Source: Candidatus Paracaedimonas acanthamoebae
GTDB lineage: Bacteria; Pseudomonadota; Alphaproteobacteria; Caedimonadales; Caedimonadaceae
Length of the DNA stretch: 32,000 nt
Direction: 5' to 3'
NCBI GenBank assembly: GCA_000743035.1
Contig: CP008938.1
Coordinates: forward strand, 39,043-71,042
Shown: piece by piece, positions 1,691 to 27,578 of the stretch
Numbering within the stretch: the first letter of the stretch is position 1
How the letters are laid out: every line of letters starts with the position of its first letter
Notes under the pieces: model-generated
Databases searched by the model: none
The model's input: the letters and a program-made list of their open reading frames with translations, nothing else
Told to the model about the DNA's origin: nothing
Position numbers and translations under genes: made by a program

Positions 1691-1846
1691 TATAAAGACA
1701 ACTCTAATTCGTGCTCTTTTTCCAGTTCCAAAGTTTTAGTTATCTTCTGAGCGATTCCCTTAAAGTGTTGCTCTTCTCTTTGAGCGATAAATTTAATTGA
1801 AGAAGAATCAATGGTGTCTCCTTTTTCAAGGGCAAGTATTGTATAC
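1690..1846 (-). pseudogene. Remnant of the last 52 codons plus stop of a traA-like relaxase gene (diverged duplicate of 2977-3133)
   Basis: Ungapped 157-nt alignment with 2977-3133, 142/157 identical by hand count. The frame is preserved and reads YTILALEKGDTIDSSSIKFIAQREEQHFKGIAQKITKTLELEKEHELELSL*. Nothing upstream in that frame continues the gene. Confidence 0.85.
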
Positions 1847-2681: not shown

Positions 2682-2976
2682 AATAGGTCCCCCAAATAAT
2701 GTTTCTTTAAGCTTAGTAACTCATTTCCTAAGCCACAGACAAGTTAGCAAGAATATGGGAAAGGTAGCTAGAATTAATTTCTAATTAACCAAAAACTTCT
2801 TACTCATCTTTGATATTATTGATTATGGGTTGCATATTATGTGATGCATATAAGATCTATAAACCCCCACTCCCTCTAGGAAATTTTCACGAATGTACCT
2901 TTATATAACGCATTTTGTGCTTTAAGGTCATATCCAGTACATGGGTTTATATTGCACCGACATGCCCACTAGGCTT

Positions 2977-8900: not shown

Positions 8901-10185
8901 CTTGAGGGATAAGAAGATGATCTATGGCTTCTCTTTGTTCTTGAGTAAAAGTGAGACCTTCTTGTTTTTGAACCTTTTCAATGGAGTTGCTTTTATGTTT
9001 TTCAGAAATTTGAGGCATTTTTCTTTGCTTCAAAAGATCCACAGTTTGAGCAATTGTAGTCTCAAGATCTTTCATTTCTTGAGAAGTGTAAAAGGTTTGA
9101 CCTTTAACATTTTCACCTAAATAAAGTGCCGTGTGTTGAGACAAAAGCTGAGCTGTAAAACGATCAATCGTGCGGCTGTAATCTTGAGTATCAAACTGAA
9201 GACTCTTGCTCTCATAAAGAAGGTTATCATTGAGTGTTTTACCAATAATAGCAGCTTTAGGGAGATCAATTCCATCCACTTTAGCCTTTAAAACAGCATA
9301 AAGTTTCTCGTCTCCTGCAACGCGTTTAAAGATCTCTTTCGCTAAATCAACTTGAGTAAAGACAGCTTTTTGGGACGCGACAACCTTGATAAGTTCTTCA
9401 GGATGTTTAAGAAAAATCTCAATATTTTGGTGGCGGATTTCTTCATTTTCTTGAACTCTGTAAGAGCGTTCTTGAAGCTTATGAAACCCATGAGGCCCAA
9501 TCTTTTTTGTGGGGACAACTTTAAGCCCTTGGTCTTCGTAAGAACGGGGATCAAGGTGGTAGTCATATCCTTTTTCTTGAGCAAATTGATTAGAGATTTC
9601 TGCAAGCTGGGAACGCAATATTTTAAGCTGCGGCTTTTCAATAACATGTCTTTTTTCTGAGAAAACTTCATCAACAAGAGGCCTTGTGGTCGCCAAAATA
9701 TGAAGGTGAGGATTTCCCTTTTTATCATGAATGGCATACTGAGTAACGAGGCCATAATTGACGTAACACTCTTTAACGATACGCTCTGAAAGCTCTATGA
9801 GATGTTCTTTATTTGTAATCTCAATTGGAAGGGCAAAAGTAAGTTTGTACCCTGTCTTACAGGTCTTTAAAAACTTCTCTTTTGCAGCAAGGCTTTTGGC
9901 ATTTTTAACTTCATCTTTGTGTCCTTTGTATCTTTTATCAGCAATATAATCTTCAAACTCTTCAACTCGATTCCAGAGAGTTTCATGATCATATACCCAC
10001 TCAGGTGACCCCTCTGGTGCAATAATATTTGTGGCTAAGAGTTCTTGGGCTTTTCCAGAATAATCCCAGGTCATTCCTGTACGTTGATCATGAGCAATTG
10101 AAGCAGATATATACGCAGAATGTGAGCAGACGGAACCTGCTCCATTTCTTGAGATGTAACTTGTGTCTGCATAATAGATAGCCAT
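2977..10185 (-). CDS. traA: Multidomain conjugative relaxase: MobA/MobL relaxase + RecD/TraA-type helicase + long unassigned helical region + Toprim primase-like domain + C-terminal domain
   Basis: N-terminus MAIYYADTSYISRNGAGS...SAYISA resembles RSF1010 MobA MAIYHL...ADYIQ. 3-His motif HDKKGNPHLHILAT. Helicase Walker A GKAGTGKST (nt ~8858-8884), VVILDEGSMV, AVTINKSQGATFDH (nt ~7771-7812). Toprim YVAEGIETAL (4081-4110) and CCDADEVG (~3949-3972). Confidence 0.92.
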   Translation of the reverse strand: MAIYYADTSYISRNGAGSVCSHSAYISASIAHDQRTGMTWDYSGKAQELLATNIIAPEGSPEWVYDHETLWNRVEEFEDYIADKRYKGHKDEVKNAKSLAAKEKFLKTCKTGYKLTFALPIEITNKEHLIELSERIVKECYVNYGLVTQYAIHDKKGNPHLHILATTRPLVDEVFSEKRHVIEKPQLKILRSQLAEISNQFAQEKGYDYHLDPRSYEDQGLKVVPTKKIGPHGFHKLQERSYRVQENEEIRHQNIEIFLKHPEELIKVVASQKAVFTQVDLAKEIFKRVAGDEKLYAVLKAKVDGIDLPKAAIIGKTLNDNLLYESKSLQFDTQDYSRTIDRFTAQLLSQHTALYLGENVKGQTFYTSQEMKDLETTIAQTVDLLKQRKMPQISEKHKSNSIEKVQKQEGLTFTQEQREAIDHLLIPQAISVLTGKAGTGKSTVLKPVVDAYKRTGMTVIGVAFQGKVADQLSYELGIEGYTLDQLKKRWSKQDSLKRLIENKELKGQALAKAKGEINRLEEWRFTPKHVVILDEGSMVSGSLWKSLLEEVDRSGAQLRIVQDNKQIKALYGLDAARLVEEKVGAYEIQGVVRQREKWMREASALLNEHRIEEGLKPYDEKGHFDYRETDYGAKISLVADYLEGLEQNPHQTHMAIAQKNKDVIALNELIRGALSSQGKLGSQEFVFGQKGQGIFQGEQDVGGPQNQHFRKSAHDWRFAVGDRVMFLSNDHKGWHVKTLEKGKSERQGVKNGTLGVIESFNLRRQTVEIRLPDGRLVGFDTKGYDALTHGYAVTINKSQGATFDHSYGLFSSFNANQLLIWLTRHKESFKGYVSKGIACDLKGMVSHVARADYKGLSTDYDLPDHQKPYFNLVQQYWKISQEAGNLRTQIETITLQTEKGGKEVSLSKEWEQYNSLVQERNQKAEDILKDWPQCSSFLQQTGVRREVLEVQAGLKQRLLSSAEEAALEKVEVYFKVADQAKDLWKEIAQTHPGSLSSAHPEYEKYIKIKEIRNELAYEMASFPQMYKPFFKVKEQGGSYVTYSGSVYEQRPQSFKAVLAQAEQHIAFKRTERYESTLTFHERAAYKQVQDYRSFHFLSVAAYKQLPELEKIAASPAMVEAHQQKMKEFAGHRDKLAYDLLSNYDQASPFIEKLGLKEEMLLKHAVFGEVRGIVEAYKTADTLEARVQMADKLVSFVFKEEGSVDKPLYGLLKEQGVDLQKLKFEQGCLKVQQQGKEVSIHTLDELDQVYTDLSTYRSLHQEVAKEWEIIKTTATQKVARVQEEQIKALNLLDSTNRLERATLEEEAIKVLKAKASNPQTLVYVNNHLRLTVNGVQNWSDLQNEIQGHQVELNQLHTSLQKGRSGYVEIYTREGKQSSWSSLRINKLEKARSLMKAYSTLHHFTPHHEYDRLFKEAHAQEMTEQVRHFKQASPQEKPALAQEIQGWLSLEQDERLTYTLTALKQERVSVEALHHYGTILSLPHEKQGDVSLLLEGYNEAKQRFSDIWQVYSEQADLKLAGEKVAYQEHVLALEAQLHAKNAKYNPHFFVERTIQRTTHALKEAKLTSQDWTSFEKEGDGQNAAKEALKHKVQTWIEKGAQTYGWDLNTPEQGSVQKEIISLALRQNDLFEKKLNEIDHIIKSENQEIPHLAIAAGKRNKAAFDLIQGGFVSQNQEVFDPSLRQVKDQALRYASSSYRLQKIHERDPEKFKDHAVVLFLKDQLSLGDEKVQGRIQKALDKAGLTLDGHLIEQDERRLIPGKSQAELSYREEREAERYTEKKGHPLPKAYKTPLYDKEDILSSLTKSHIEEIFARHIDLWVTNPKPTYRSHEIRYGSKGGFVIYRDQSTWSNFKTGEGGDIFNYVSKSLKISYKDAIKQIGEEINAPQLISINWEERAQKQNELKLQAEIEEKAKIEKSQATTKKLYDTSRSIQGKLAEKYLREHRHIKTAELPEDLRFIAEYKDYDKAPSYPVLASFSRDPQEKLTAVQLIYLDPQTANKADIEVKKRSLGSIKNTAVEVQAGEGPTYVAEGIETALSLKEAGIQGRILVTLGLSNMRYVGSHIKDKDQPVILCCDADEVGSQAWKSSEQNLKKLQEEGFKASIVRPQGEKGRDFNDILQEEGIAVVQEVLKEVASFKERRSQKETHLSGRPQARLTEEQIVLNRTILSPTTQEVPQEKTQSLLKEDDPTFNRMIVLKHFYPELSEKVLTQRVYHEKERQERYIEYALENKQLTQDELFTYADRLSKIEGRLYQEHLLKHGKAPKSYEIYMDTQRVYSASHQNIEKTYTKFLEAGASEQTARIGANYYQHLEESINLHPKKLSLVLQATEILKKDDPEALAHPQSFEITKRFAYTMLALEKGDTIDSSSIKSVAQKEEQHFKGIALKITKTLELEKEHEVELPL

Positions 10186-13229: not shown

Positions 13230-14483
13230 TTATTTTACTTTAGGTAAGTCCTTCCATTCAGTTGTGTAATGAGGTGACAGGAACTGCCTTTGAGTAATTG
13301 TATGCGCTGCTTGTTTTATAGCTCCATAACTCACTGTTCTTTTTCCATACCTTTTGTTTAAAGTATCAAGTGTTTGCATAAGCTGCTCTTGACGGGATGA
13401 AGAACTTTTAAAAAAGGACGGCTGAAAGCTTTCTGGATTCGAAAGCTCTAATAAACACACCCCAGCTTTTTTGTAAGATAAATAAGGCTTATAAATTTTG
13501 CTTAATGCCCTTTTTGCAGCTGTAATAAAGGTTGGGGTATAATTACACGCGGCTTCAAGTTCCGCTAAATGATAGTTACTATAATAAGCTCCTTCTCCAT
13601 AACGATTCGTTTTAATAAAAACCCCTACTTGTGAGGCAAGCCTTTGCTCTCCCCTTAGCTTCTCAACAGCTCTTTCAATAAAGGCACAGACTGCATACTC
13701 TAATTCTTCATAAGACGTAACATCCTTGGCAAAAGAACGAGAAACCGTAATCATCTTTTTAGAGGCTGAAGCTTCTTCAATCTCATGAGCCATGTGTCCA
13801 TTAAGCTCAGAGACTATTCTCTCGCCAACAACACTCATCTTCTGACGAATCCATTTAGGTGGTGCTCTCTTTAATTTAAGGGCCGTATCAATTCCTTGAG
13901 AAAGAAGATACTTGGTATGGTTACGTCCAATACCCCACAAATCAGCTATAGGAAATCTTTCTAAAAAGGAGTTTATCTCTTTTTCATCCATTAGGATAAA
14001 AACGCCCTCTCCTTTTTTAGAATAGTTGTTGGCAACTTTCGCAAGCGTCTTTGTTAAAGACACTCCAATAGATATAGGGATGCCAAGTTGATGCCATACT
14101 TGTGATTTTAAACGCTGACAAAAGGTAATCACTTGAGCTTCAGGAATATCTGTTAAATTAAGAAAGGCTTCATCAATAGAGTAAATTTCCATCTGAGGAA
14201 CTTGAGATTTTAGGAAGGACATAATGCGGGTAGAGAAGTCTTGATAAAGCGTATAGTTAGAAGAGAACACAGCAATATTAAATTTTTCAACAAGTGATTT
14301 AAACTTAAAGTAAGGTTCTCCCATTTTAATACCAAGAGCTTTAGCTTCATTGGATCTTGCAATAGCACAGCCATCATTGTTTGAGAGAACAACAACAGGC
14401 TTATGCCATAAATCAGGCCTAAACACTCTCTCACAGGAAACATAGAAATTATTAATATCAACAAGAGCTATTTTGCGCATCAT
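13230..14483 (-). CDS. umuC: Y-family translesion DNA polymerase subunit UmuC
   Basis: [55 protein letters not shown] is near-collinear with E. coli UmuC. The start is set at ATG 14483, which forms an ATGA overlap with the umuD stop. The listed ORF start at 14516 overlaps umuD. Confidence 0.92.
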
Positions 14484-14902
14484 AAAGTATGAATTGCGGC
14501 TGTTACTACTCCCCATACTTGAACACTATCATCAGAACTTAAAAAGAAGGGTTCAGCATAATTAGTATCTGCCCTTAGTGTTATGTTATTGCCATACTTC
14601 TCAAAACGTCTTAGACAAAACTCTCCTGCAATAACAGCAACAATAACATCTCCTGATTGAGGTTTAAGGCTGCGGTCTACAATTAAAAGATCATCTGTAA
14701 GAATGCCTGACTCTTTTAAAGAATCACTTGAGGCTTTCATAAAAAATGTAGTGACTGGATTAGGAATGAGGTGCTCGTTAAGATCCAAAGCTCTTTCAGC
14801 ATAATCTAGGGCTGGAGATGGAAATCCTGCTGAAACTGACGTTTCATAGAAAGGTAAAGATTGAGAAGAGGAAGGATTAAATCTTGTAGGAAGAAGGTTC
14901 AT
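14480..14902 (-). CDS. umuD: UmuD-like S24 peptidase / pol V accessory subunit
   Basis: [11 protein letters not shown] (Ala-Gly cleavage site), KASSDSL (Ser nucleophile), DLLIVD and GEFCLRRF all align with E. coli UmuD. It sits directly upstream of and overlapping umuC. Confidence 0.9.
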
Positions 14903-17368: not shown

Positions 17369-17613
17369 AGGCCTAATGTGTACGTCCAGTCCTTTTTGGG
17401 ACAAGATTAGTTCCTCTTATATTATTGTAGTTGTCAAATGTAGGATTCAAGCCAAGTACGCGGTGTGAGAATTATCTCCGTATTATATGATATGATGCAT
17501 AATATACGGATTTTAAAGAACTTTGAATGAATACTTCAATTATATAATCTTCTGATTTAAAATGCTTTTTTGAGATGCTATCCCAAAAAGGACTGGACGT
17601 ACACATTAGGCCT
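17369..17613. mobile_element. MITE-like element bounded by perfect 33-bp terminal inverted repeats
   Basis: aggcctaatgtgtacgtccagtcctttttggga (17369-17401) is the exact reverse complement of 17581-17613. 179-bp AT-rich interior without a credible gene. Confidence 0.55.
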
Positions 17614-17791
17614 TTAGAAAGGCTTTGAATGATTTTTGACTTACCAAAAAACAACCCCGAAAATGACCGCTTGAATTTATCGGAAAAACAAGGGGCTATA
17701 AAAGCATGGTGAAGCAAAGCCTCTCAATCATTATCGTAGGTTCTTGTGGTACCTTACGTTCCTTGTATCTCTATAAGAGATCAGTATGTGA

Positions 17792-17883
17792 AGCTAATAT
17801 ACTGATAAAGGTAGAGAGAAGTCGTTACGTACCTTGTAGCTAATATACTGATAAAGGTAGAGAGAAGTCGTTACGTTCCTTGT
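17792..17883 (+). repeat. 46-bp tandem duplication (2 units, 1 mismatch) inside the IS110 5' non-coding region
   Basis: agctaatatactgataaaggtagagagaagtcgttacgt[a/t]ccttgt at 17792-17837 and 17838-17883. The unit end ttacgttccttgt also occurs at 17753-17765. Confidence 0.9.
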
Positions 17884-18032
17884 GCCACTTGAGCACGTCA
17901 TAAAGAATTAACTCTCTCTATCTATTATTGGTTTTAAAACCGAACGGTATCTTATGACCTCAATATTGAGTGATCATGCATTTTACAAGGTTGGTTAAAA
18001 ACCATGTTTATTATACTAGATGAGGTGATTTT

Positions 18033-19007
18033 ATGCAAACCGCTCATGTTATTGGCCTTGATATATCTAAAAAGACGTTTGATGTTTGTACTATTTTTGA
18101 TGGAAAAATGAAGATTCATTCATTTTATAATAATAAAGCAGGCTATGAAGCATTCGTTTTATGGATTAAGAAATTTGATCTAATAAATCCCCATATTTGT
18201 ATGGAAGCCACAGGATCTTATTCAGAAGGTGTTGCTGAATTTTTATATAGTTTCGGTTATAAAGTCAGTATAATAAATCCGTTACAGATAAAATCCTTTA
18301 GGCTTAGTAAGATGATTCGTCAGAAAACAGATAAATCTGATTGTGAAGTCATTGCCATGTTTTGTTTGCAAAACTGTCCATCCCTATGGAATCCAAAGAG
18401 TCGAGAAAAGAAAGAATTACATGAAATCAATGCACGAATTGATGCTCTTAAAATGGAATTAAATAGGATAATCAATTTTCTCGAAAAAGAACTTTTAAAT
18501 AAAATCGTCATAAGATCAATAAAGGAAGAAATGCAATTTACTAAAGATATGATCGAAAAATTAGAACATGAAGCTTTGAATATTATCAAGAATTCACCAG
18601 TGATGAAAAAGCAATTTGATCATCTTACAGAAATAAAGGGTGTTGGCATAAAAACAGCCGTAACAATTTTAGCAGATATGCCTGATATCAACCATTTTAA
18701 GAATGCAAAACAGTATGCTGCTTTTGTGGGGGTAACCCCCTCTCATCTTCAATCCGGAACGTCTGTTAAAGGTAAATCCCACATCTCTAGACTTGGCTCC
18801 AAAAAAATTAGAAAAACTCTCTATATGGCCGCAGTTGTCATAAAAAACCACAATCCTCATTTTCAATTTCTTGTAAAACGTTTGGCCAGTAAGGGTAAAC
18901 CACCAAAGGTGATTATTGTGGCTATTATGAGAAAGTTACTACATATATTCTTTGGAATTCTTAAATATAATGAATCTTTTAATCAATATAAAGCTTTTCA
19001 ACCTTGA
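18033..19007 (+). CDS. IS110-family transposase/recombinase
   Basis: N-terminal VIGLDISKKTFDVC (DEDD RuvC-like) and C-terminal GVGIKTAVTILADMPDINHFKNAKQYAAFVGVTPSHLQSGTSVKGKSHISRLGSKKIRKTLYMAA (Transposase_20-type domain). Confidence 0.92.
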   Translation: MQTAHVIGLDISKKTFDVCTIFDGKMKIHSFYNNKAGYEAFVLWIKKFDLINPHICMEATGSYSEGVAEFLYSFGYKVSIINPLQIKSFRLSKMIRQKTDKSDCEVIAMFCLQNCPSLWNPKSREKKELHEINARIDALKMELNRIINFLEKELLNKIVIRSIKEEMQFTKDMIEKLEHEALNIIKNSPVMKKQFDHLTEIKGVGIKTAVTILADMPDINHFKNAKQYAAFVGVTPSHLQSGTSVKGKSHISRLGSKKIRKTLYMAAVVIKNHNPHFQFLVKRLASKGKPPKVIIVAIMRKLLHIFFGILKYNESFNQYKAFQP

Positions 19008-19040
19008 CTCCAAAGACGGTATCTTATGTAGATAGACCCT

Positions 19041-19196
19041 TACCTTAAGTAAAATCTACTTAAAATGAGCAATTAAGTGAATTCTACTTATGGGTTCTTT
19101 TCAATTTTTTCCGTAGTTTGATACTAATAAGGCGCATGCCTGATTAAGAAGCATTATTAAGCTTCTCTTATTTATCTTAGATTTAAGGAGGATTAC
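19041..19196 (+). promoter_or_regulatory. Leader/promoter module copy 1, with two TAAGTA-N5-TACTTA-type boxes, a conserved GC-rich box, a leader hairpin and an RBS
   Basis: Ungapped homology, about 85% (150/177 by hand count), between 19041-19217 and 23997-24173. Boxes at 19046-19062 and 19074-19090. RBS aaggagg. Confidence 0.7.
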
Positions 19197-20411
19197 ATGA
19201 AATTGAAATACTTAATGCTGCCTGTTATAACTTTTATTTATGTACACCAAGGAATGGCAAGCAATCCTTTAGAAAGTGAGCTTGAAAGAGAGGGTAATAG
19301 TGAAATTGTGGCCTATAGAACCATAAATTCCGTATTAGATGAAGAAACACTCAATTTTCAGGTTGAAACCCCTAAGTATTATTATATAAAAGCTGTCGCT
19401 CTACAAGATGAAGAACAAATGCAAGAGGCAATAGAATATTTTAAGCTAGCAGCTCACTCAGGTCATCATCGTGCTGCTTATATCTTGGCTCATTTCTATT
19501 TGGAGGGAAAATACTTAGAAAAATCTGCAGAAGAGGGAATGAAGTATCTTATTATGTCTAAAGATAGTGGAAACCTTGAAGCAAAACAGGAACTGGATTT
19601 TATTAGAAATTCAATAGATGAATTAACTGAATATTTGCCTGAATCAGGAATAATTAAAGGGTTACGTAAAGCAAGCTACGTAGCTAAAAAAGTTGAGAGT
19701 ATTACTTGGTGGCTACAATGTAGTGGTACAGGTCTTTATCACTTCTTAGACATTTTAGGATATAATAGTCAAGCAAGTTTTGTAGAAAATGGGTTACGAT
19801 ATAACCAAATGATTAATGGTGTAAGTAAGGTAGTTTATGGTGGAAGTGATTCAATCGTTTTTGGTAGACTTGAGCCACTTTTAACTAGTGGTCTTGGTGT
19901 CATTCAACTAGGAAGTATTTATCTGCAATCAGAAACCCTAAAACAACAAAAAAAATTAGAGTTAAAAGCTCAAAAATTGAAAAATTTAAAAAAAGAAAAT
20001 TCAGAAGACTATCCTTCTGAGTGGGAATCAATTTACCATGAAAAACAACAAAAGATAAAGGAAAAGAAAAAAGTATGTGATAATCAAATGATAGGTGTAA
20101 ATATTGCTGAAAATATTATGGGTACAACTCTTATAGCCTGGGCAGAAAATAAAGAAAGAAATTTTCTACAAGTTTTTCTGAATAGTGCATCAAAATGCTT
20201 TAAAGTATACGGCTATCAGATTATTTCTACAATCCTCAAGGAAACTCCAATTAAAGAAGTAGCAAAAAGAAAAGTGGGTAGCATTATTGACAATATCAGG
20301 AGTAATTTTAGTGAAGCACTTAATAGTAATTCTAATCTAGATAAAGTGTTTGATAAATTTAAAAACGAATTTTATGAGTATATTGATAGGCACGTAAGCA
20401 TGGCACCTTAA
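19197..20411 (+). CDS. Secreted/membrane Sel1-like-repeat protein
   Basis: Signal-like MKLKYLMLPVITFIYVHQGMAS. AIEYFKLAAHSGHHRAAYILAHFYLEGKYLEKSAEEGMKYLIMSKDSGNLEAK is a Sel1 (SLR) repeat pattern. Gly-rich hydrophobic central region and Lys-rich coiled coil. Confidence 0.75.
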   Translation: MKLKYLMLPVITFIYVHQGMASNPLESELEREGNSEIVAYRTINSVLDEETLNFQVETPKYYYIKAVALQDEEQMQEAIEYFKLAAHSGHHRAAYILAHFYLEGKYLEKSAEEGMKYLIMSKDSGNLEAKQELDFIRNSIDELTEYLPESGIIKGLRKASYVAKKVESITWWLQCSGTGLYHFLDILGYNSQASFVENGLRYNQMINGVSKVVYGGSDSIVFGRLEPLLTSGLGVIQLGSIYLQSETLKQQKKLELKAQKLKNLKKENSEDYPSEWESIYHEKQQKIKEKKKVCDNQMIGVNIAENIMGTTLIAWAENKERNFLQVFLNSASKCFKVYGYQIISTILKETPIKEVAKRKVGSIIDNIRSNFSEALNSNSNLDKVFDKFKNEFYEYIDRHVSMAP

Positions 20412-20427
20412 AAGGAATAGTTTAGAT

Positions 20428-20451
20428 GGCACCGTCTTATATGACGGTGCC
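20428..20451. terminator. Bidirectional hairpin terminator between convergent genes
   Basis: Perfect 9-bp GC-rich stem ggcaccgtc / gacggtgcc with a 6-nt loop, in the 96-nt gap between the stops at 20411 and 20508. Confidence 0.7.
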
Positions 20452-20507
20452 TATTAAAGAGTTGGACTAGAGGATTTTTATAAATATGGAAAGTGTTTAT
20501 CGTAAGT

Positions 20508-23500
20508 CTAATGCTTTTTAAAAAATTCAAGCTTAGCAAGTACCCTTAATAAATGAGGGGTTTTCTCTCCATAAGAAACTTTACCTAAGGAAAGGGCCTG
20601 CTGCAAGTTCTGTTCTGCTTTTTTGAGAAGAAGGCTTGATTGCAAAGGGCCTTTCCCTTGGGCTTTTTTGCGGTATAAATCTGCTAAGAGTTCATAATCC
20701 ATAAATTGCTCAGGGTGCGAACTGAGTTTAAAAATTGACAATGACCTGAACAATAAATTTTCTGAAGTTTCAAGTTGATTTTGAGCCATATAAAGGCATG
20801 CTAAAGCCCTTAATATACGGGCTGTTTCAATATGGTGAGTCCCATAGATTCTCTCATAATTCTTTAAGCTTTCTTGAAGATTCTTTTTTGCTAAATTTTG
20901 CCTTCCAGTTCCACAATATAAAATACCTAAATAATATTTGGCTAAAAAGATTGAGGAGTGTTGAGGTGGAAGATACTTTTGGCACTCTCCTAGAGCTTCT
21001 TTAAGCATAATTTCTGCTTCATGATAGCTTCCCATTTCTGTTAAAAGGTTTCCTATATGAAGAGAAAACCAAGCAATATCATCATGATTATCAGGAAGAT
21101 GTATTTGATGAAGCTTTTTCCCTTGTTGAAAGAGCTCTTGGGCTTTCTCATAATAGCCCAGTGCTTTATAAACTTTTCCGAGAAATCCTAAATTCCAACT
21201 AATCAGACGATAATGCTTTTTAAGAATCTTTTGAGTTTGTATATGGTAAGATTCTTCAAGAGAGTTTTTTGCAAGGAGGTAGTCTCCATTTTCTACATAA
21301 GCTTTGCCAAGCTTAATAAGGCTTGTTGAGATTCTTAAGTCATCCTTAGGCATATAGTTTTTTAAAAGAGCCACAGATTCTTTTAAATAATTAACACCAT
21401 CTTTATAGTGACCTAAGTATAGACTTACATCCCCTAAATGCTCAAGTGTCCAAGAAAGCCTCATATAATGGGTGGGAAACAGTGTACGATAAATCTCTAA
21501 ACCAGCTTGTACGTCACTTAAGGCAGCTTTATACTCTCCTAAACACTTTTTAACAATCCCTCTGTAGACAAGAATGTTGGCTTTCCTTAAGTCTATTTTA
21601 AGACATTCAGGCTTTATTTTTTTAGCATTTTTTAAAAGCTTGAGGCTCTTATTTAAAGTTTCAGTTGCCTTAGAATAAATGTTGAGTAAAAGGTAAAATC
21701 CTGACACCTGACACCCTAAATATCCTCTTTGCTCGTCTGTAAGCAAATTTGTGTGCTTTAAAAGGGCCTCTCCATGGTTCATTAGTTTCCTTATTTTAGC
21801 AAAATCTTCTTCGAGGACAGTGTCATAAATAAACTTCTCAAGAAACTCAGAAAGTATATATAATCTGGGGTCATTCAAAGTTAAGTTAAGCTTTTTTAAT
21901 AAATAAGCGCGCATCATTTCTTGAGTGCTGCGATGAATGGAGAATGTTGCAAGACCTTGAGATGAAGTATTATAACTAATTAAAGAATAATGGTGAAGAT
22001 CTTGGATGAAAGTATTAACCAAATCTTTGCTTTTATAACCTTCAAACAAAAATTTCGGTATTGCTTGTGAATCAATGAGTGTTAAAAGGATAAGAAAATC
22101 TTTAAAATCAGGGTGCTTTTGTAGCATTTTTTCAATAGAAAGTTTAATAATACTATAGCGGGTTTGATGATAATTTTGAGATGAGGTTAAGATCTCCTTA
22201 TGGCTTTGGGAAAGATTAGCTTCATCATGATAAAGAGCCCCAAGATATTCATTATAGCTTGCTTTTGTATTCTTTAAGTACTGAGCTGCAAGCGTGACAT
22301 CTAGAGGAAAGGGGGGGACTTGTTCTAAAAATACTTTTAAATCTTTGCGTTCTTCTAAGGTTTGCTCCTTTGAGCTGCTGTGAACCTTTGAGAATAAGTC
22401 TTCTCTTTCTTCAGGATTTAAAGCTGGGATTTGAAGGTGAGCATTAATATAAAGGCAATTTTGAATATTGCTGTTACGCGTTGTGAGGATCACTTTTCCA
22501 GGCCCCCATAAAGTAGCATCATAAGGAAAGTAATACTTAATGTCCGAGAATTGTTCAACATTGTCGTAAATTAAAATCCAATGAGGGTGTTGTTTGAGGC
22601 GATGCTTGACAAAACCTACCATTTTTTCTAAGCGTTTATAATCTTCTTTAATATCTTTTATTTGTTGGAGAAAGATTTTATCTTCTTCAGTGTGAATTAA
22701 GCTCTCAGCAAGGGTTTCAAAAGAACGAGAGAGATTTTCAGGGGTTTCTGCATTGAGTTCCCACACAAGAGATTCTTTATAAATGCGGGCATAGTGGCGA
22801 GCAAGAGTTGTTTTACCCATGCCCCCCATGCCAATAAGAGCTATAGTTTGAATTCCTTTTTGGCCTTTAAGGCTTTTATGCATATGAACCATTAAAACAG
22901 GGCGCTCTAAAAAAAAAGCAGGGGTTGGAATTGGAAGTTCTGATTGAATTTCTATCTTATGACGCTGCTTTAAAGGCCCATGGTAGAAGCCTTTAATAAA
23001 GTAAAACCCTGCTAAACTTATACCCAAAGCTCCTAGAAGAGAATAAGAAAACCCCTTAATGGATAACCAAGAGGAAAGAACAGATTTGTTTTTTCTAGAG
23101 GGTATAGTAGAAGAAAAAAAAGGGGGAGATTCAATTGATTGAGTATGAGCAATAAAGGATTCAGTTATTTTAGTGATATCTGCATGATTAGCAATCAACT
23201 TAATGATATCCAAAAATAAAGCATTTCTATTAAGGTAATGCTTGCACTCGACAGAAAGATAAGGAGAAGGAAGGATTCCTTCTTCAAGCAAATAAACACT
23301 TATTAATGAATAAGAGCTTGAAGCGCTTAAAAACTCTTTTTGTTCTTTTGTACTGAATAATCCTTTTAGAGTTTGGATGGGAAGAAAGTAAATAAGGCTT
23401 TGTATAGGCTGATTCTTTTGGAATTTAATATTTGGAAAAGGCTCATCTATTATAACAAGGGAAGTAATAAAGCCTGCTTGTTTGAGTGTTTCTTCTAAGG

Positions 23501-23933
23501 CTTTTAAGAAATAAGCCCTGTCTGAAATGTCTTCCTTCCATCCAACAATTTGAACAGCACCTTTATGAAAAGGAAGTCTTGCTATAATTTCTAAATTTTT
23601 TTCGAATTCTTTTAGCCAAGAAAGATAAAGATAAAACTTCTTAAGAGTAAAAATATGTGAAGTTTTTTCAATTAACGTGATAAGGCTCTCTTTGGAGTTA
23701 ACCTCAAGCTTTTTAAAAATATTATAAATATGAACTTCAATGGTACGAGGAGAGAGGGAGAGTAAAGCGCCAATTCCTTTGGGGGGCCTTCCATTCATAA
23801 GACAAGCAATGATTTCAATTTCTCGCCGAGTAAAGTGAACATTATGCAAAACTTGAAGTTGATGGATATAAATAAAATCTAGGATGTCTTTAAGGGAACT
23901 CTCAAAAATGTTTGAGGTTTTATTTTGCACCAA
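20508..23933 (-). CDS. STAND-class regulator: N-terminal LuxR/GerE HTH, hydrophobic segment, NB-ARC-type P-loop NTPase, C-terminal TPR array
   Basis: HTH FTRREIEIIACLMNGRPPKGIGALLSLSPRTIEVHIYNIFKKL. Hydrophobic FSYSLLGALGISLAGFYFIKGFY (aa ~295-317). Walker A IALIGMGGMGKTTLARHYA (nt ~22804-22840). ILIYDNVE Walker B-like. Multiple TPR-like YxxAxxxxxxAL repeats in the last ~400 aa. Non-ATG start (TTG 23933 or GTG 23930) behind an AAGGGAGA RBS. Confidence 0.85.
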   Translation of the reverse strand: MVQNKTSNIFESSLKDILDFIYIHQLQVLHNVHFTRREIEIIACLMNGRPPKGIGALLSLSPRTIEVHIYNIFKKLEVNSKESLITLIEKTSHIFTLKKFYLYLSWLKEFEKNLEIIARLPFHKGAVQIVGWKEDISDRAYFLKALEETLKQAGFITSLVIIDEPFPNIKFQKNQPIQSLIYFLPIQTLKGLFSTKEQKEFLSASSSYSLISVYLLEEGILPSPYLSVECKHYLNRNALFLDIIKLIANHADITKITESFIAHTQSIESPPFFSSTIPSRKNKSVLSSWLSIKGFSYSLLGALGISLAGFYFIKGFYHGPLKQRHKIEIQSELPIPTPAFFLERPVLMVHMHKSLKGQKGIQTIALIGMGGMGKTTLARHYARIYKESLVWELNAETPENLSRSFETLAESLIHTEEDKIFLQQIKDIKEDYKRLEKMVGFVKHRLKQHPHWILIYDNVEQFSDIKYYFPYDATLWGPGKVILTTRNSNIQNCLYINAHLQIPALNPEEREDLFSKVHSSSKEQTLEERKDLKVFLEQVPPFPLDVTLAAQYLKNTKASYNEYLGALYHDEANLSQSHKEILTSSQNYHQTRYSIIKLSIEKMLQKHPDFKDFLILLTLIDSQAIPKFLFEGYKSKDLVNTFIQDLHHYSLISYNTSSQGLATFSIHRSTQEMMRAYLLKKLNLTLNDPRLYILSEFLEKFIYDTVLEEDFAKIRKLMNHGEALLKHTNLLTDEQRGYLGCQVSGFYLLLNIYSKATETLNKSLKLLKNAKKIKPECLKIDLRKANILVYRGIVKKCLGEYKAALSDVQAGLEIYRTLFPTHYMRLSWTLEHLGDVSLYLGHYKDGVNYLKESVALLKNYMPKDDLRISTSLIKLGKAYVENGDYLLAKNSLEESYHIQTQKILKKHYRLISWNLGFLGKVYKALGYYEKAQELFQQGKKLHQIHLPDNHDDIAWFSLHIGNLLTEMGSYHEAEIMLKEALGECQKYLPPQHSSIFLAKYYLGILYCGTGRQNLAKKNLQESLKNYERIYGTHHIETARILRALACLYMAQNQLETSENLLFRSLSIFKLSSHPEQFMDYELLADLYRKKAQGKGPLQSSLLLKKAEQNLQQALSLGKVSYGEKTPHLLRVLAKLEFFKKH

Positions 23934-23996
23934 AAAATAGGTCTCCCTTAGCCTAAGTTTATTTGCTCAACTTTAATAAATATTTTTCTGCCTGTC

Positions 23997-24152
23997 TACC
24001 TTAAGTACAATCTACTTAAAAGCTGTAATTAAGTAGATTGTACTTATAGGTGTTTTTCGCTTTCTTACGTAGTCTGACCCTAATAAGGCGCATGCCTGAT
24101 TAAGAAGCATCATAAAGCTTCTTTTGTTTATCACATATTTAAGGAGAATTAC
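23997..24152 (+). promoter_or_regulatory. Leader/promoter module copy 2, in the divergent intergenic region between the STAND gene and the coiled-coil/patatin operon
   Basis: Boxes TAAGTAcaatcTACTTA (24002-24018) and TAAGTAgattgTACTTA (24030-24046) together form an 18-bp-arm inverted repeat. Conserved ctaataaggcgcatgcctgattaagaagcat. Hairpin 24102-24123. RBS aaggaga. Confidence 0.7.
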
Positions 24153-24872
24153 ATGAAATTAAAATACTTAATGATTACAACTTCAATTCTACTAGGTACT
24201 GGCCAAGTATTTGCAAGTTCACACTTTGATGCTGAAGCTGAAGAATCTTATCGAAGCCAATCAAGAACCAGAAGCACAGAGTCAAGATCTTATATGGAAT
24301 ATGACATTAAAGAACTTGAAGCACTTGCTCAAAAACTAGCCGTTATAAAAAAAATTAAGGAAACAGAAGCCGAACTTCCTCTGATAGCAGCTTTAGCTTC
24401 TGATAGAATTAAAGAAATAAAATATAGAGAAGAGAAAAGGGAAGAAGAGCTGCAGCAGCAAAAAATAAATACTGAAGGAATTCGTAATAAAATTGAACAA
24501 GATAAAATAATAGCATTCAACAAAAGCAAAATGGAGGCAGCACAAATACAAGCAAAAGTAATCAGCATTTTGAGTGAAACAGAGGTAAAGGTAGAAGGTA
24601 AGAGAATTGCTAATATGCGGAAAGCACGCAAGTTGCAAATGGATAAGGTAATATCAGAAGAAAGCATGGTTGGTACTCTATGGAGTGGTCTTTTTGGGAG
24701 AAAAATTGAGGATGGTGATATTTATGGTCAAATAGCAGCAGATAGAGAGAGTCAAGCCAAAGAGAAAAAGAAAATGCAAGAATATTTTTCGGGAATGTTG
24801 TCAATAGAGGCCCCTCAGAAAACTATTGGATCAATTACAAGATCAGGCCCTCGTATTGAAGAGTTAGATTAA
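24153..24872 (+). CDS. Secreted coiled-coil protein (239 aa), first gene of a three-gene operon
   Basis: Signal MKLKYLMITTSILLGTGQVFASS. Charged heptad-like sequence (EEKREEELQQQK...). Strong RBS. Confidence 0.75.
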   Translation: MKLKYLMITTSILLGTGQVFASSHFDAEAEESYRSQSRTRSTESRSYMEYDIKELEALAQKLAVIKKIKETEAELPLIAALASDRIKEIKYREEKREEELQQQKINTEGIRNKIEQDKIIAFNKSKMEAAQIQAKVISILSETEVKVEGKRIANMRKARKLQMDKVISEESMVGTLWSGLFGRKIEDGDIYGQIAADRESQAKEKKKMQEYFSGMLSIEAPQKTIGSITRSGPRIEELD

Positions 24873-24881
24873 GGTATAGTC

Positions 24882-25589
24882 ATGAAGGTAATATATAATA
24901 TTCTTAAATGCGCCCTTATATGTATATGTCTTCATGGTTTTTGGTCTTTCAGTTCATTAGCCAGTAATCCGGCTGATGAACTGGAATTATTTGGCCAGAA
25001 ACACAGACGTTGGGTAAATAGGGGTCGAAACCAGGCTTCACAACCCTTAAAGGGCAAAAAAGACAATCATCAAGAAGAATTAAGAAGAATTAAAAAAGAT
25101 TTGATGACGAGATTGTTAAGTGTCTCTCAAGAAATTCTTGAGCAAAAAATAAGTGAAAATCATTTTACCCCAACACAACGAAATGTTGAGACATTACTTA
25201 CATACGACCTACAACAGCTCAAATCTATATTAACTTACGAAGAGGAAAGGACAAAAATTATATTAAGTATTTTAAAGCAGAGGAATATATTCATAGATAT
25301 AAAAGAGCAAGAAGAACAAATTCATTTTCAAGTTCTTTTAAGGGAGCAAATGGAAAATGCTTGTAAATTTTATCAAAAGAAATTCGAGATGTATAAAACA
25401 AGATGTGAAGAGCAAGAAAAGAGAATTCAATCACAAATGATGCGAATTTTAAAGACTGAAGCTAGCAAGTTACTTAGTAATGTTCACACGAAAATGTTAG
25501 AAGTTGAAGTTGATAATCTTAGGGAAGAGATAAAATCAAAAGAAAAAATAATTGAAGAGCATGACAAAAGCAATTGCTTGTTACAATAG
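24882..25589 (+). CDS. Signal-peptide/membrane-anchored coiled-coil protein (235 aa)
   Basis: Starts 9 nt after the upstream stop. N-terminus MKVIYNILKCALICICLHGFWSFSSLAS. The remainder is Glu/Lys/Gln-rich helical sequence. Confidence 0.72.
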   Translation: MKVIYNILKCALICICLHGFWSFSSLASNPADELELFGQKHRRWVNRGRNQASQPLKGKKDNHQEELRRIKKDLMTRLLSVSQEILEQKISENHFTPTQRNVETLLTYDLQQLKSILTYEEERTKIILSILKQRNIFIDIKEQEEQIHFQVLLREQMENACKFYQKKFEMYKTRCEEQEKRIQSQMMRILKTEASKLLSNVHTKMLEVEVDNLREEIKSKEKIIEEHDKSNCLLQ

Positions 25590-25606
25590 AAATTAGGAGT
25601 ATTATT

Positions 25607-27292
25607 ATGAAAAATATTCATATTGTTAAATATTGTATGGTTTTACCATGTATAATATTAAATTTATATCATCCTGCGAGATCTTCGGGAGTGCCTAAGA
25701 TGGATATTGAATCATATCGCCCTAACTTAACAATTAATTACTTTAATATAAATACAAGCTTAGAGCAGCTTGAGGGCCAACGAAAAAGGCTAGAAGAGCA
25801 ATACCAAATGGCTTTAGATGAAAACCATAAAACTATATCTCTGTTAGAGAGAGAAGATAAAGAAAAAGAGGCACAGTTTCAAAGCAAACTTAATGAGCTT
25901 CGTAAGGAAACTCAAGAATATTATAGAAAAAGTATGTTTTTAAAAAGTGATAGGCAACAAAGAGAAGCAGAGCAACAAAGGAAACTCTTGCGTGTGAGAG
26001 ATTATGCTGAAAAAATAATAACTATTAGTCAAGATGAGGTAGATCAAACCAAAAGCATCCTTGATAATTTAGAGCAGCGCCTACAGATAGAGACTTATTT
26101 AAGTCCTTCTCTTATTTCTCCTATAGAAAACTTGAAAAGAATATTGGTCGGGACTAACCCTATTGATGCTAATCCTACTGCCCTTGTGAGACAAATAAAA
26201 TACAAAACACACCAACAAAGAGACCAAATCTTAGAAGAATATGAAGATCTGGAATTAGATTTTCGAAGAAATAGTGTTAAAAGCCTTGAGAGACCCTTCT
26301 ATTATGGTCTGTCCTTAGATGGGGGCGGTATTAGAGGGTTAAATCTTTGTCTCTGCTTGGAAGAAATAGAAAGGGTTACAGGTAAAAAAATAGCCGAATT
26401 ATTTGATTTTATAGGAGGGACATCGATTGGGGGGATTATAGCTCTAGGGCTAACTATAGGAGAATATCAAAGCCCCTACTATTCTGCTAATCATTTTAGT
26501 GAGCTATTATACAATCATAGCAAGAATATTTTCCCAAGGGAAAAAAAATTAGATCTAGTAACAAGCACATTCTATACGTTTAAAGATCTTTTCTGGTCAG
26601 CTCGTTATTCTGCGGCTCCTTTACGAGGTTTATTAGAGAGTTCCTTTTACGAAGCGCGTCTAAGCCAGGCTATTAAGCCTGTCCTTACAACAGCAGTTCA
26701 TGCAGTTGACAATTCTCTACTTTTTAAAAGAGCACAGACTTTTGAAAGCTTGGAAGCACTTGCAGATGACAATAATGATTTCTTAATTGTTGACGTTGGA
26801 CTTGCAACTTCTGCGGCTCCAACTTTTTTCCCTGCAGCTGAAGTATGGAATATCAAACGCACTAGAGCAATGAATCTTGTGGATGGCGGACTATGGTATA
26901 ATAATCCTTCACAATTAGTTTATAATAGAATGATGAATCATTTTAACTGTAGTGTTGAAAATATGATGCTAGTTTCGATAGGAACTGGAAAAGCATCAGG
27001 AGCTTCTAGCTCAGCTTTACCTAAAAGTGCTTCTTTGCTAAGGGCAGCTAAACCTACTATTGAGGCTATGATAATGGCCAATACCGAAGGTGTGCATGAA
27101 GAAATGTCTAGAATAAAAAACTTGAATTATCATAGAATTCAGCCGTTCTTAGAAAGAGATATTCAATTAGACGATGCTTCAGAGGATGCTTTAGAAGTCC
27201 TTAAGCTTGCTGCTGCAAGCCAATATAGAGAGATTAAGCCAATAGCAAAAACCTTATTAAAAAACTACGATTTTAAGAAGGATATATTATAA
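25607..27292 (+). CDS. Patatin-like phospholipase with hydrophobic N-terminus and ~230-aa coiled-coil extension
   Basis: GLSLDGGGIRG (oxyanion hole), GGTSIGG (GxSxG nucleophile), LVDGGLWYNNP (catalytic Asp). The start is set at ATG 25607 behind an AGGAG RBS. The listed 25574 start overlaps the upstream gene. Confidence 0.88.
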   Translation: MKNIHIVKYCMVLPCIILNLYHPARSSGVPKMDIESYRPNLTINYFNINTSLEQLEGQRKRLEEQYQMALDENHKTISLLEREDKEKEAQFQSKLNELRKETQEYYRKSMFLKSDRQQREAEQQRKLLRVRDYAEKIITISQDEVDQTKSILDNLEQRLQIETYLSPSLISPIENLKRILVGTNPIDANPTALVRQIKYKTHQQRDQILEEYEDLELDFRRNSVKSLERPFYYGLSLDGGGIRGLNLCLCLEEIERVTGKKIAELFDFIGGTSIGGIIALGLTIGEYQSPYYSANHFSELLYNHSKNIFPREKKLDLVTSTFYTFKDLFWSARYSAAPLRGLLESSFYEARLSQAIKPVLTTAVHAVDNSLLFKRAQTFESLEALADDNNDFLIVDVGLATSAAPTFFPAAEVWNIKRTRAMNLVDGGLWYNNPSQLVYNRMMNHFNCSVENMMLVSIGTGKASGASSSALPKSASLLRAAKPTIEAMIMANTEGVHEEMSRIKNLNYHRIQPFLERDIQLDDASEDALEVLKLAAASQYREIKPIAKTLLKNYDFKKDIL

Positions 27293-27382
27293 TTTAATTC
27301 TGATCTTGCTACATTAAAACATACGCAGAGAATTGAGATAGGTTAATGTTATTGAAAGAAGAGAACATGGACTTCACCCGAT

Positions 27383-27532
27383 TTAGAGGACAGGTTCTTC
27401 CAATGTGAGCGCCCTTCTTTCAAACTCTTTTGGAGACATGTATTCCAAAGTTGAATGAATCTTTTTCCAGGAAGAAACTATAAGGGCCTTGTGACGGAGC
27501 ATTGTACCTTTTCTTTTACAGATCTTGGCTTC
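27383..27532 (-). pseudogene. 3'-terminal remnant of an older IS3-family transposase (OrfB C-terminus)
   Basis: The open frame encodes ...KALIVSSWKKIHSTLEYMSPKEFERRALTLEEPVL*, which fits the conserved IS3 OrfB C-terminal H-x-x-L-x-Y-x-S-P-x-x-F-E motif. It is truncated upstream about 16 nt from the intact IS3 end. Confidence 0.6.
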
Positions 27533-27578
27533 TTAAATGGAGGGGCAATGAGTGCGGCTTGGGGTGTCCAGCCCCCGA

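What the first reader, a model, noticed from the sequence alone, without database searches (positions are those of the whole stretch)
19041..19217. 177-bp leader module (operators, GC box, hairpin, RBS, first seven codons) duplicated in front of two unrelated secreted-protein genes
19041-19217 aligns without gaps to 23997-24173, about 85% identical (150/177 by hand count). The homology runs through the RBS and the first seven codons (MKLKYLM in both) and then stops. The downstream proteins are unrelated: a Sel1-repeat protein and a coiled-coil protein. Conservation is mosaic. A 31-nt block ctaataaggcgcatgcctgattaagaagcat is identical, and the palindrome half-sites are conserved while their spacers differ. 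This argues for selection on discrete functional sites, that is a portable expression and targeting cassette, rather than a recent duplication.
Basis: seen in the sequence. Interest (0 to 1): 0.7.

Follow-up and report, generated by a model that had tools for sequence, protein, structure and literature searches.

The report
Duplicated regulator-controlled promoter and leader region
A 177-bp control region (two palindromic binding sites, a leader and the first seven codons) beside a large sensor-type transcription factor gene on an amoeba-symbiont plasmid has been partly copied in front of a second, unrelated secreted-protein gene, most likely putting both genes under that factor; this is an ordinary kind of event, with a newly predicted binding motif.

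Summary
The repeat is real: 19041-19217 and 23997-24173 align without gaps at 150/177, and the downstream proteins are unrelated past the signal peptide. The window comes from a plasmid of Candidatus Paracaedimonas (Caedibacter) acanthamoebae.

Between the copies lies a 1141-aa regulator gene (N-terminal LuxR-type HTH, NB-ARC ATPase, TPR). Copy B is its divergent intergenic region. Copy A is a partial copy that lacks the regulator's own promoter.

The TAAGTA-N5-TACTTA palindromes are the best-supported functional part. The same motif lies next to homologous regulator genes of four lineages (100, 54, 40 and 34% identity). It keeps a conserved position just upstream of the regulator's promoter.

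The identical 31-mer is not special: a run that long has P about 0.09, and a third variant changes it. There is no RNA covariation and no Rfam match.

The variants are mosaic, which points to recombination between copies. Further copies exist only as part of the whole locus, duplicated on sister plasmids. Pattern scans of genomes, metagenomes and viral contigs, and a PLSDB megablast of the region, found no independent copies.

Verdict: a duplicated regulon promoter and leader, not a widely portable cassette. Binding, transcription start and the direction of control are inferred, not shown.

The parts
19041..19217 (+). Module copy A: two palindromes, leader, ribosome-binding site and codons 1-7 of the Sel1-like gene
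   Evidence: Ungapped 150/177 match to copy B. An IS110-family transposase gene ends 34 nt upstream.
23997..24173 (+). Module copy B: divergent control region between the regulator gene and the 239-aa gene
   Evidence: Nearly invariant in the related contigs L002 and L003.
19045..19063 (.). Palindrome 1 of copy A, TTAAGTA-N5-TACTTAA (predicted regulator binding site)
   Evidence: This is the least variable 20-nt bin of the module.
19073..19091 (.). Palindrome 2 of copy A, TTAAGTG-N5-TACTTAT (promoter-proximal site)
24001..24019 (.). Palindrome 1 of copy B; abuts the -35 of the regulator's own promoter
   Evidence: The identical 17-mer lies next to the 54%-identical regulator in L041-L043.
24029..24047 (.). 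Palindrome 2 of copy B; its 17-nt core (24030-24046) is the exact reverse complement of the core of palindrome 1 (24002-24018)
23970..23998 (-). Predicted promoter of the regulator gene: TAGACA, 17 nt, TAAAGT
   Evidence: Consensus scan. Both hexamers are conserved while the spacer varies in L044/L046, whose regulator is only 40% identical. L047/L048 have the same layout.
20508..23933 (-). Regulator gene: N-terminal LuxR/GerE HTH, NB-ARC STAND ATPase, TPR repeats (1141 aa; the true start may be the GTG at 23930)
   Evidence: Pfam, NCBIfam, homologues, start alignment.
19114..19119 (+). Candidate -10 of the cargo promoter (TAGTTT in A; TAGTCT at 24070-24075 in B), inside the conserved CGTAGTYTGA block
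   Evidence: Inference only. The block is invariant in all variants. It starts 32 nt from the centre of palindrome 2, against 35-36 nt for the regulator promoters. No canonical sigma-70 promoter was found.
19124..19154 (+). Identical 31-mer (second occurrence at 24080-24110); probably the start of the transcribed leader
   Evidence: Not conserved in L002 module A. Run-length P = 0.09.
19147..19166 (+). Terminator-like leader hairpin AGAAGC/GCTTCT followed by a T-rich run (24102-24123 in B)
   Evidence: The base of the stem is kept and the stem is lengthened in L002 module A, but there is no covariation.
19185..19199 (+). Shine-Dalgarno AAGGAGG and ATG of copy A (24141-24155 in B)
   Evidence: Read from the sequence.
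19197..20411 (+). Cargo gene of copy A: 404-aa Sel1/TPR-like protein with a signal-peptide-like N-terminus
   Evidence: Identical to IM40_10195.
24153..27292 (+). Cargo genes of copy B: 239-aa and 235-aa charged helical proteins and a CapV-like patatin phospholipase; all have hydrophobic N-termini
18033..19007 (+). IS110-family transposase gene inserted immediately left of copy A
   Evidence: Pfam. An identical Logan contig, L039, carries the same arrangement. The ends of the element were not defined.

Best explanation
The module is a transcription control region plus a translation start.

Copy B is the divergent intergenic region of a STAND-type transcription factor gene (N-terminal LuxR-type HTH, NB-ARC ATPase, TPR sensor). 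Its two 19-bp palindromes (TTAAGTA-N5-TACTTAA, centres 28 bp apart) are binding sites for dimers of that factor.
- The left palindrome sits 3 nt upstream of the -35 of the regulator's own promoter, which points to autoregulation.
- The right palindrome sits just upstream of a weak rightward promoter (candidate -10 TAGTYT). That would put the transcription start near the beginning of the 31-mer.
- The resulting leader would be about 70 nt. It contains a small terminator-like hairpin and a strong AAGGAGG, followed by the n-region of a Sec-type signal peptide.

Copy A is a partial duplicate of the rightward half of this region. It has both palindromes, the promoter, the leader and codons 1-7, joined in frame to an unrelated Sel1-like gene. 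This places that gene in the same regulon.

Activation is the more likely mode, because the sites lie upstream of the -35 and STAND regulators are typically activators. Copies later exchanged sequence by recombination, which produced the mosaic pattern.

Shown: the repeat, the palindromes, the domain content of the regulator, and the co-occurrence and fixed position of the motif next to homologous regulators.
Inferred: binding, the transcription start, activation, and the direction of the duplication (B to A).
For: 1. Repeat and palindromes are real.
2. The gene between the copies has GerE (residues 34-86), NB-ARC and TPR domains. Its start lies 63 nt from copy B.
3. The motif TAAG[GT]A-N5-TACTTA lies next to regulator genes of four lineages, against 0.13 matches expected in 75 kb:
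- the window;
- P0002, 54% identical, where the identical 17-mer plus a second site lie 14 nt after the stop codon and upstream of an unrelated secreted-protein gene;
- P0004, 40% identical;
- P0009 and P0010, 34-35% identical.
4. The layout palindrome, 3-4 nt, -35, 17 nt, -10 is conserved with variable spacers in window/L044 and in L047/L048.
5. P0001-P0004 share the recognition helix RT[IV]E[VA]HIYNIFKK. A paralogue with a divergent helix (P0025) has no such palindrome upstream.
6. Half-sites vary less than spacers (P = 0.02).
7. Copy A starts 2 nt inside the regulator's -35, so it lacks that promoter.
8. Three different upstream contexts (IS110 end, regulator promoter, unrelated DNA in L002) argue that the cargo promoter lies inside the module.
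9. L002 is 98.7% identical to the window over 8.5 kb, but its module A has about 44 differences in 177 nt and a non-syntenic left flank. This indicates recombination.
Against: - No canonical sigma-70 promoter is detectable in the module. The proposed -10 (TAGTYT) and -35 are weak and are not recognisable in L041.
- No transcription or binding data exist.
- The two palindromes together also form a long hairpin followed by a T-rich run, so a structural role is not excluded.
- Palindrome 1 contains a good -10-like hexamer (TACAAT or TAAAAT), which would fit repression instead.
- The motif in the most distant lineage is imperfect (TAAGGA).
- Another DNA-binding protein could recognise the sites.
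- The complete genome of the source organism could not be searched for further copies.
Confidence: 0.6

Rival explanations
1. Same protein and same sites, but acting as operators for repression. The cargo promoter's -10 would be the TACAAT/TAAAAT hexamer inside palindrome 1. Transcription would start between the palindromes, and palindrome 2 would act as a downstream roadblock.
For: A 5/6 match to TATAAT lies inside palindrome 1 in every variant and in L041. The one variable position of palindrome 1 is the third, least constrained, base of that hexamer.
Against: No -35 is conserved: the three upstream contexts differ. For the regulator's own promoter the palindrome lies upstream of a conserved -35/-10 pair, which is an activator-like position. 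Characterised STAND transcription factors (MalT, AfsR) are activators (established knowledge).
Confidence: 0.18
2. A neutral, fairly recent partial duplication with no shared regulation. The mosaic of identical and diverged blocks would be chance plus gene conversion, and the palindromes would matter only for the regulator's own promoter in copy B.
For: The 31-nt identical run is not significant (P = 0.09). Outside palindrome 1 and codons 4-7, variation is even along the module at 5-9 variable sites per 20 nt. Copies exchange sequence.
Against: Both palindromes keep their half-sites in all A-type variants although copy A has no regulator promoter. L041 shows the same two-site arrangement upstream of an unrelated cargo gene. 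The reading frame, Shine-Dalgarno sequence and start codon are intact in every copy.
Confidence: 0.12
3. The module acts mainly at the RNA level, as a structured leader. The long palindrome hairpin and the AGAAGC/GCUUCU hairpin, each followed by U-rich runs, would serve as attenuators or stabilisers, or would define a small RNA.
For: Terminator-like sites are called in both copies. The hairpin formed by palindromes 1 and 2 is very stable in B (z = -8.3) and significant in the other variants. G-U wobbles keep pairing on the + strand in the A variants. L002 module A lengthens the second stem. L041 has an analogous hairpin before its RBS.
Against: Covariation is essentially absent: the covariation term is +0.5, and only one of 21 predicted pairs shows a two-sided change, in one sequence. 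The 3' half folds no better than shuffles (z = -0.4 to -0.8). There is no Rfam match. Each arm is palindromic on its own, which a hairpin does not need but a dimeric protein does. L044, L047 and L048 carry a single palindrome.
Confidence: 0.07
4. The palindromes are a mobile-element feature, such as a target or end of the adjacent IS110-family element or a REP/MITE-like repeat, and the module spread with it.
For: The IS110-family transposase gene ends 34 nt from copy A, and homology with B begins there. TACCTT occurs at both presumed IS junctions and at copy B (read from the sequence).
Against: Copy B, L002 module A, L041 and L044 have no IS next to the palindromes. The ends of the module are not inverted repeats of each other, and no flanking duplication was seen. 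No dispersed copies turned up in any scan.
Confidence: 0.03

Closest known systems
LuxR/TraR-type activation from a dyad-symmetric box just upstream of or overlapping the -35 (lux box, tra box)
   Same: The regulator has a GerE/LuxR-type HTH. The sites are 19-bp dyads. They abut the -35 of a promoter whose -35 is weak or atypical. Autoregulation through the regulator's own promoter region is predicted.
   Different: The regulator is a 1141-aa STAND ATPase, not an autoinducer-binding protein or a response regulator. The HTH is N-terminal. Cargo promoters carry two sites 28 bp apart. Binding and the transcription start are untested.
MalT/LAL family (large ATP-binding LuxR-type regulators; STAND transcription activators)
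   Same: A STAND NTPase, a repeat sensor domain and a LuxR-type HTH in one polypeptide. Several binding sites lie upstream of weak promoters, and target genes lie next to the regulator gene.
   Different: The domain order is reversed: the HTH is at the N-terminus rather than the C-terminus. The NTPase matches NB-ARC, and the match to the MalT model covers only the HTH (23.5 bits against a cut-off of 537). MalT boxes are asymmetric, whereas these sites are palindromes.
AfsR-type regulators (N-terminal DNA-binding domain, NB-ARC, TPR)
   Same: The same overall order: DNA-binding domain, NB-ARC, TPR. This is an NLR-like switch used for transcription control (preprint 10.64898/2026.09.02.748808 and PMC10972967, listed).
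   Different: The DNA-binding domain is LuxR/GerE type, not SARP (OmpR-like winged helix plus BTAD). The AfsR model matches only 42 residues of the NTPase. SARPs bind direct repeats rather than palindromes (established knowledge). The host is an alphaproteobacterial amoeba symbiont, not Streptomyces.
Promoter and 5'-end duplication that recruits a gene into a regulon (promoter capture, 5' gene-segment shuffling among effector genes)
   Same: A control region plus the first codons is copied in front of an unrelated coding sequence in frame. Later gene conversion between copies gives mosaic identity.
   Different: Nothing unusual. The only notable point is that two independent junctions (A versus B, and L002 A versus window A) fall within the same 12 nt, in codons 4-7.

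Membership tests
LuxR-type (GerE HTH) regulated promoter with a dyad operator | A regulator with a GerE/LuxR HTH encoded nearby | tested here: met
   PF00196 GerE, E 9.6e-14, residues 34-86 of the 20508-23933(-) product.
LuxR-type (GerE HTH) regulated promoter with a dyad operator | A dyad-symmetric site of about 18-20 bp that co-occurs with the regulator across relatives | tested here: met
   19-bp palindromes. The motif lies next to four regulator lineages, with 0.13 matches expected in 75 kb.
LuxR-type (GerE HTH) regulated promoter with a dyad operator | Site centred about 40-65 bp upstream of a mapped transcription start, with binding demonstrated | not testable with these tools
   No transcript or binding data. 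The position relative to the predicted -35/-10 is consistent.
MalT/LAL regulators | An N-terminal STAND ATPase with a C-terminal LuxR HTH | tested here: not met
   The HTH is at residues 34-86 and the NB-ARC domain at 352-580. The MalT model PRK04841 scores 23.5 bits against a cut-off of 537.
AfsR/SARP-STAND regulators | A SARP-type (OmpR-like plus BTAD) N-terminal DNA-binding domain | tested here: not met
   No SARP or BTAD hit; GerE is found instead.
Intrinsic terminator or attenuator in the leader | A stable G+C-rich stem-loop followed by a U run, maintained by compensatory changes | tested here: inconclusive
   The pattern is called in both copies, but the stems have only 6-7 pairs, there is no covariation and the fold z-scores are not significant.
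Known RNA families (Rfam 15) | A match at the gathering score | tested here: not met
   No match in the window. Only chance-level hits at E > 0.7 around module A.
MITE or IS end | Terminal inverted repeats at both ends, a target-site duplication, and many dispersed copies | tested here: not met
   No inverted repeat joins the two ends of the module. No dispersed copies were found.
   The full module was seen in front of only two gene types. Other copies are orthologues or whole-locus duplicates. The complete source genome could not be scanned.

The most novel reading that the evidence does not exclude
The module could be a recombination-active 5' cassette made of operators, promoter, leader and the start of a signal peptide. 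Through it, these plasmids would plug new secreted effector genes into the regulon of an NLR-like (STAND) sensor with a transcription-factor output. The invariant codons 4-7 would serve as the recurrent in-frame junction. The sensor would switch on a set of secreted proteins, including a CapV-like phospholipase, in response to a host or phage cue.
Probability: 0.15. Interest if true: 0.6.

Novelty: new member of a known kind. Interest (0 to 1): 0.35.

Why it matters
The result gives a concrete and cheaply testable prediction for an uncharacterised regulator family that is expanded in Paracaedibacteraceae (86 homologues at E <= 1e-10). The predicted binding motif is TTAAGTA-N5-TACTTAA. The layout is autoregulatory, and the small candidate regulon consists of proteins with signal-peptide-like N-termini encoded on plasmids of an obligate amoeba symbiont.

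These organisms cannot be manipulated genetically, so operator and regulon predictions are one of the few ways to learn which genes respond together. The 177-bp repeat itself is an ordinary partial duplication of a promoter region.

Tried and rejected
Searches for further copies:
- Megablast of 18900-24400 against PLSDB plasmids found no match.
- The genome-collection scan with the 20-mer core found only the orthologue in Ca. Paracaedibacter symbiosus PRA9, with an assembly gap upstream.
- The metagenome scan with the double-palindrome pattern returned 35 loci. All were tandem repeats or chance palindromes. The best (L015/L017/L025, 77% over 53 nt) precedes a gene whose N-terminus reads like an HTH-containing serine recombinase (by eye; not checked against a family library), with no LuxR-type regulator gene beside the site; I treat it as chance.
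- The viral scan found 0 matches.

Motif and RNA searches:
- Rfam at the gathering score and at relaxed E-values found nothing.
- Sigma-70 consensus scans found no convincing promoter inside the module.
- By eye I checked for sigma-54, CtrA (TTAA-N7-TTAA; the spacings here are 9 and 11), alphaproteobacterial LexA and EcfG motifs. None fits. These are inferences, not tool results.
- Folding the alignment of the leader showed no covariation.

IS110 element:
- I tried to define its ends from other copies, but only one identical context was on record.
- The PRA9 comparison suggests a left end near 17745. This remains unresolved.

Look-ups that failed: IM40 paralogues P0038, P0005 and P0087 are not on record, so the other plasmid copies could not be read at the DNA level.

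Defence-system reading: the regulator gives no meaningful PADLOC hit, and only the patatin gene resembles a CBASS effector.

Full report
**Observation.** The repeat is real and sits at the stated coordinates.
- 19041-19217 aligns without gaps to 23997-24173 with 27 mismatches (150/177).
- The 31-mer CTAATAAGGCGCATGCCTGATTAAGAAGCAT occurs exactly twice, with 0 expected.
- There are four TAAGT-N7-ACTTA palindromes, two per copy, against 0.04 expected.
- Homology runs through AAGGAG, the ATG and seven codons (MKLKYLM) and then drops.
- The two proteins align only over their first 30 residues (12/30) and are otherwise unrelated.
- The 'Sel1' assignment is weak: it falls below the Pfam cut-off.

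**Source and context.** The regulator encoded between the two copies is 100% identical to IM40_10715 of Candidatus Paracaedimonas (formerly Caedibacter) acanthamoebae, which is plasmid-borne. The Sel1-like protein is identical to IM40_10195 on a 71-kb plasmid.

Gene order in the window:
- IS110-family transposase, 18033-19007 (+)
- module A
- Sel1-like gene, 19197-20411 (+)
- a 1141-aa gene, 20508-23933 (-), with an N-terminal LuxR/GerE HTH, an NB-ARC STAND ATPase and TPR repeats
- module B
- genes for 239-aa and 235-aa charged helical proteins and a patatin phospholipase (+)
- IS3-family transposase

All four cargo products have hydrophobic, signal-peptide-like N-termini. Module B is therefore the divergent intergenic region of the regulator gene. 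Module A lies at the other end of that gene, in front of a gene convergent with it.

**Anatomy.** Each copy contains, in order:
- two 19-bp palindromes, TTAAGTA-N5-TACTTAA, with centres 28 bp apart;
- a T-rich stretch;
- an invariant CGTAGTYTGA block;
- the 31-mer, which includes a small GGC/GCC hairpin;
- a terminator-like hairpin AGAAGC/GCTTCT followed by a T-rich run;
- AAGGAGG, the ATG, and the codons for MKLKYLM.

In copy B the second palindrome core is the exact reverse complement of the first. The pair therefore also forms a 23-bp hairpin of -27 kcal/mol, z = -8.3.

**Comparative evidence for the palindromes.** The same motif lies next to homologous regulator genes in unrelated contigs.
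- P0002 (54% identical; L041-L043): TAAGTACAATCTACTTA, identical to palindrome 1 of copy B, plus a second degenerate site. Both lie 14 nt after the regulator's stop codon and upstream of a 95-aa secreted-protein gene. The cargo genes there are not homologous to those of the window.
- P0004 (40% identical; L044-L046): one palindrome lies upstream of the regulator gene. The roughly 95 nt between it and the start codon are about 80% identical to the minus strand of the window. Both hexamers of the TAGACA-17-TAAAGT promoter found by the scan at 23998..23970 are conserved, while the spacer varies.
- P0009 and P0010 (34-35% identical; L047, L048): TAAGGAAAATATACTTA lies upstream of the regulator gene in the same layout of palindrome, 4 nt, -35, 17 nt, -10.

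Across 75 kb of these loci the motif occurs only at these places, against 0.13 expected. P0001-P0004 share the recognition helix RT[IV]E[VA]HIYNIFKK. A paralogue with a divergent helix, P0025, has no such palindrome upstream. The palindromes are therefore best read as binding sites of this regulator family. The left one serves the regulator's own promoter.

**What is and is not conserved inside the module.** A related contig, L002, is 98.7% identical to the window from 19045 to 27564 (about 1 difference per 100 nt). Its module A, however, differs from the window's at 44 of 177 positions, and its left flank is unrelated.

Using copy B as reference:
- 18 changes are private to window A;
- 26 changes are private to L002 A;
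- 8 changes are shared by both A types, all between 19066 and 19111.

A local excess of this size cannot come from point mutation. It indicates recombination or gene conversion with other module copies.

Among four distinct variants, the only 20-nt bins with a single variable site are palindrome 1 and codons 4-7. The rest has 5-9 variable sites per 20 nt. Half-site positions vary less than spacers (2/28 against 7/19, P = 0.02).

The 31-mer is changed at 7 positions in L002 A, and a 31-nt run is not significant on its own (P = 0.09). It is more likely a conversion tract or chance than a fixed site. The base of the leader hairpin is kept, and the stem is lengthened in L002 A, but there is no covariation. 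There is no Rfam match.

**Copy number and portability.**
- A scan of 185,579 species-representative genomes with a 20-nt core found one hit: the orthologue in Ca. Paracaedibacter symbiosus PRA9, with an assembly gap where the IS lies.
- The metagenome and viral scans found no homologous copies.
- Protein cluster records show the whole locus on two plasmids of the source organism (IM40_10195/10205/10210 and IM40_10705/10710/10715). A third Sel1-like copy (IM40_11435) also begins MKLKYLM.

More copies therefore exist, but as segmental duplicates of the locus, not as a cassette scattered in front of many genes. The source genome itself could not be searched at the DNA level.

**Mechanism proposed.**
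- The STAND regulator binds the palindromes as dimers, and probably as higher oligomers once its NB-ARC/TPR module is switched on.
- From palindrome 1 it controls its own promoter, with the site centre about 47 nt upstream of the predicted start.
- From palindrome 2, helped by palindrome 1, it controls a weak rightward promoter. The best candidate -10 for this promoter is TAGTYT, at 19114-19119 and 24070-24075. That puts the site centre near -44 and the start near the beginning of the 31-mer.
- Copy A is a partial copy of the rightward half. It begins 2 nt inside the regulator's -35 and is fused in frame at codon 7. Residual similarity (21/45 nt, P about 0.014) hints that the copied piece originally extended to the signal-peptide cleavage site.
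- The regulator-adjacent arrangement is the conserved one in distant relatives, so B to A is the likelier direction.

Binding, the transcription starts and the sign of control are inferences.

**Rivals.** These are set out in the rival explanations:
- repression, with a -10 inside palindrome 1;
- a neutral duplication;
- an RNA-level leader;
- a mobile-element feature.

**Comparison with known systems.** Functionally the module resembles LuxR/TraR-type dyad boxes next to the -35, and the multi-site promoters of STAND activators such as MalT. The regulator is not a member of the MalT/LAL family, because its HTH is N-terminal. It is not an AfsR/SARP-type regulator, because its DNA-binding domain is of the LuxR type. 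The comparative genomics paper on these symbionts does not mention LuxR, NB-ARC or tetratricopeptide proteins at all (PMC5751055).

**Verdict.** This is an ordinary kind of event: a duplicated regulon promoter and leader, with later exchange between copies. It lies in an uncharacterised regulator family for which a binding motif can now be predicted. Interest is modest.

Noticed in passing
window 25574-27292 (+): The patatin protein at the end of the module B gene set matches CBASS cGAMP-activated phospholipase (CapV) models closely: NCBIfam 181 bits against a cut-off of 200, and PADLOC effector models at E 1e-55. It also carries an extra N-terminal region of about 245 residues. No cyclase gene was seen among the ORFs next to it (an IS3-family transposase follows).
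   Followed up: partly
window 17944-17956 and 19016-19028; IS110-family element around 17750-19040: The 13-mer ACGGTATCTTATG occurs in the 5' non-coding region and again near the 3' end of the IS110-family element (0 expected). This could be a guide segment of a bridge-RNA-like transcript. TACCTT lies at both presumed junctions and also at the unoccupied copy B.
   Followed up: partly
window 17789-17880: A 46-bp unit is repeated twice in tandem (96% identical) just upstream of the IS110 transposase gene. The PRA9 orthologue has a single unit.
   Followed up: partly
window 17369-17401 and 17581-17613: A perfect 33-bp inverted repeat encloses 179 nt, which looks like a miniature-element or hairpin structure.
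   Followed up: no
window 1688-1846 and 2975-3133: A 159-nt direct repeat (91% identical). One copy overlaps the 3' end of the 2402-aa ORF (2977-10185, minus strand), so the other may be a duplicated fragment of that gene end.
   Followed up: no
L044 6-146 (also L045): A 46-codon ORF upstream of regulator P0004 is identical over 40 residues to the N-terminus of the paralogous regulator P0003, and then breaks off inside the HTH-coding region. This is a sign of recombination between regulator paralogues.
   Followed up: partly
window 19221-19247 (codons 9-17 of the Sel1-like gene): Copies of the Sel1-like protein differ mostly in the hydrophobic core of the signal peptide: 4 of the 7 differences between the window protein and IM40_11435 fall in residues 9-17. 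The 5' end of the gene is a local hot spot of divergence.
   Followed up: partly
L041 4041-4079: A 19-nt inverted repeat (95% complementary) lies between the first and second cargo genes. It carries the same TACTTAA and TTAAGTA words at its outer ends, but in the opposite relative orientation.
   Followed up: no
window 13230-14902 (-): A umuC-like gene (impB/mucB/samB family, 428 aa) lies next to a 140-aa ORF (14480-14902) that was not tested against any family library. If that ORF is umuD-like, the plasmid carries a translesion polymerase pair.
   Followed up: no
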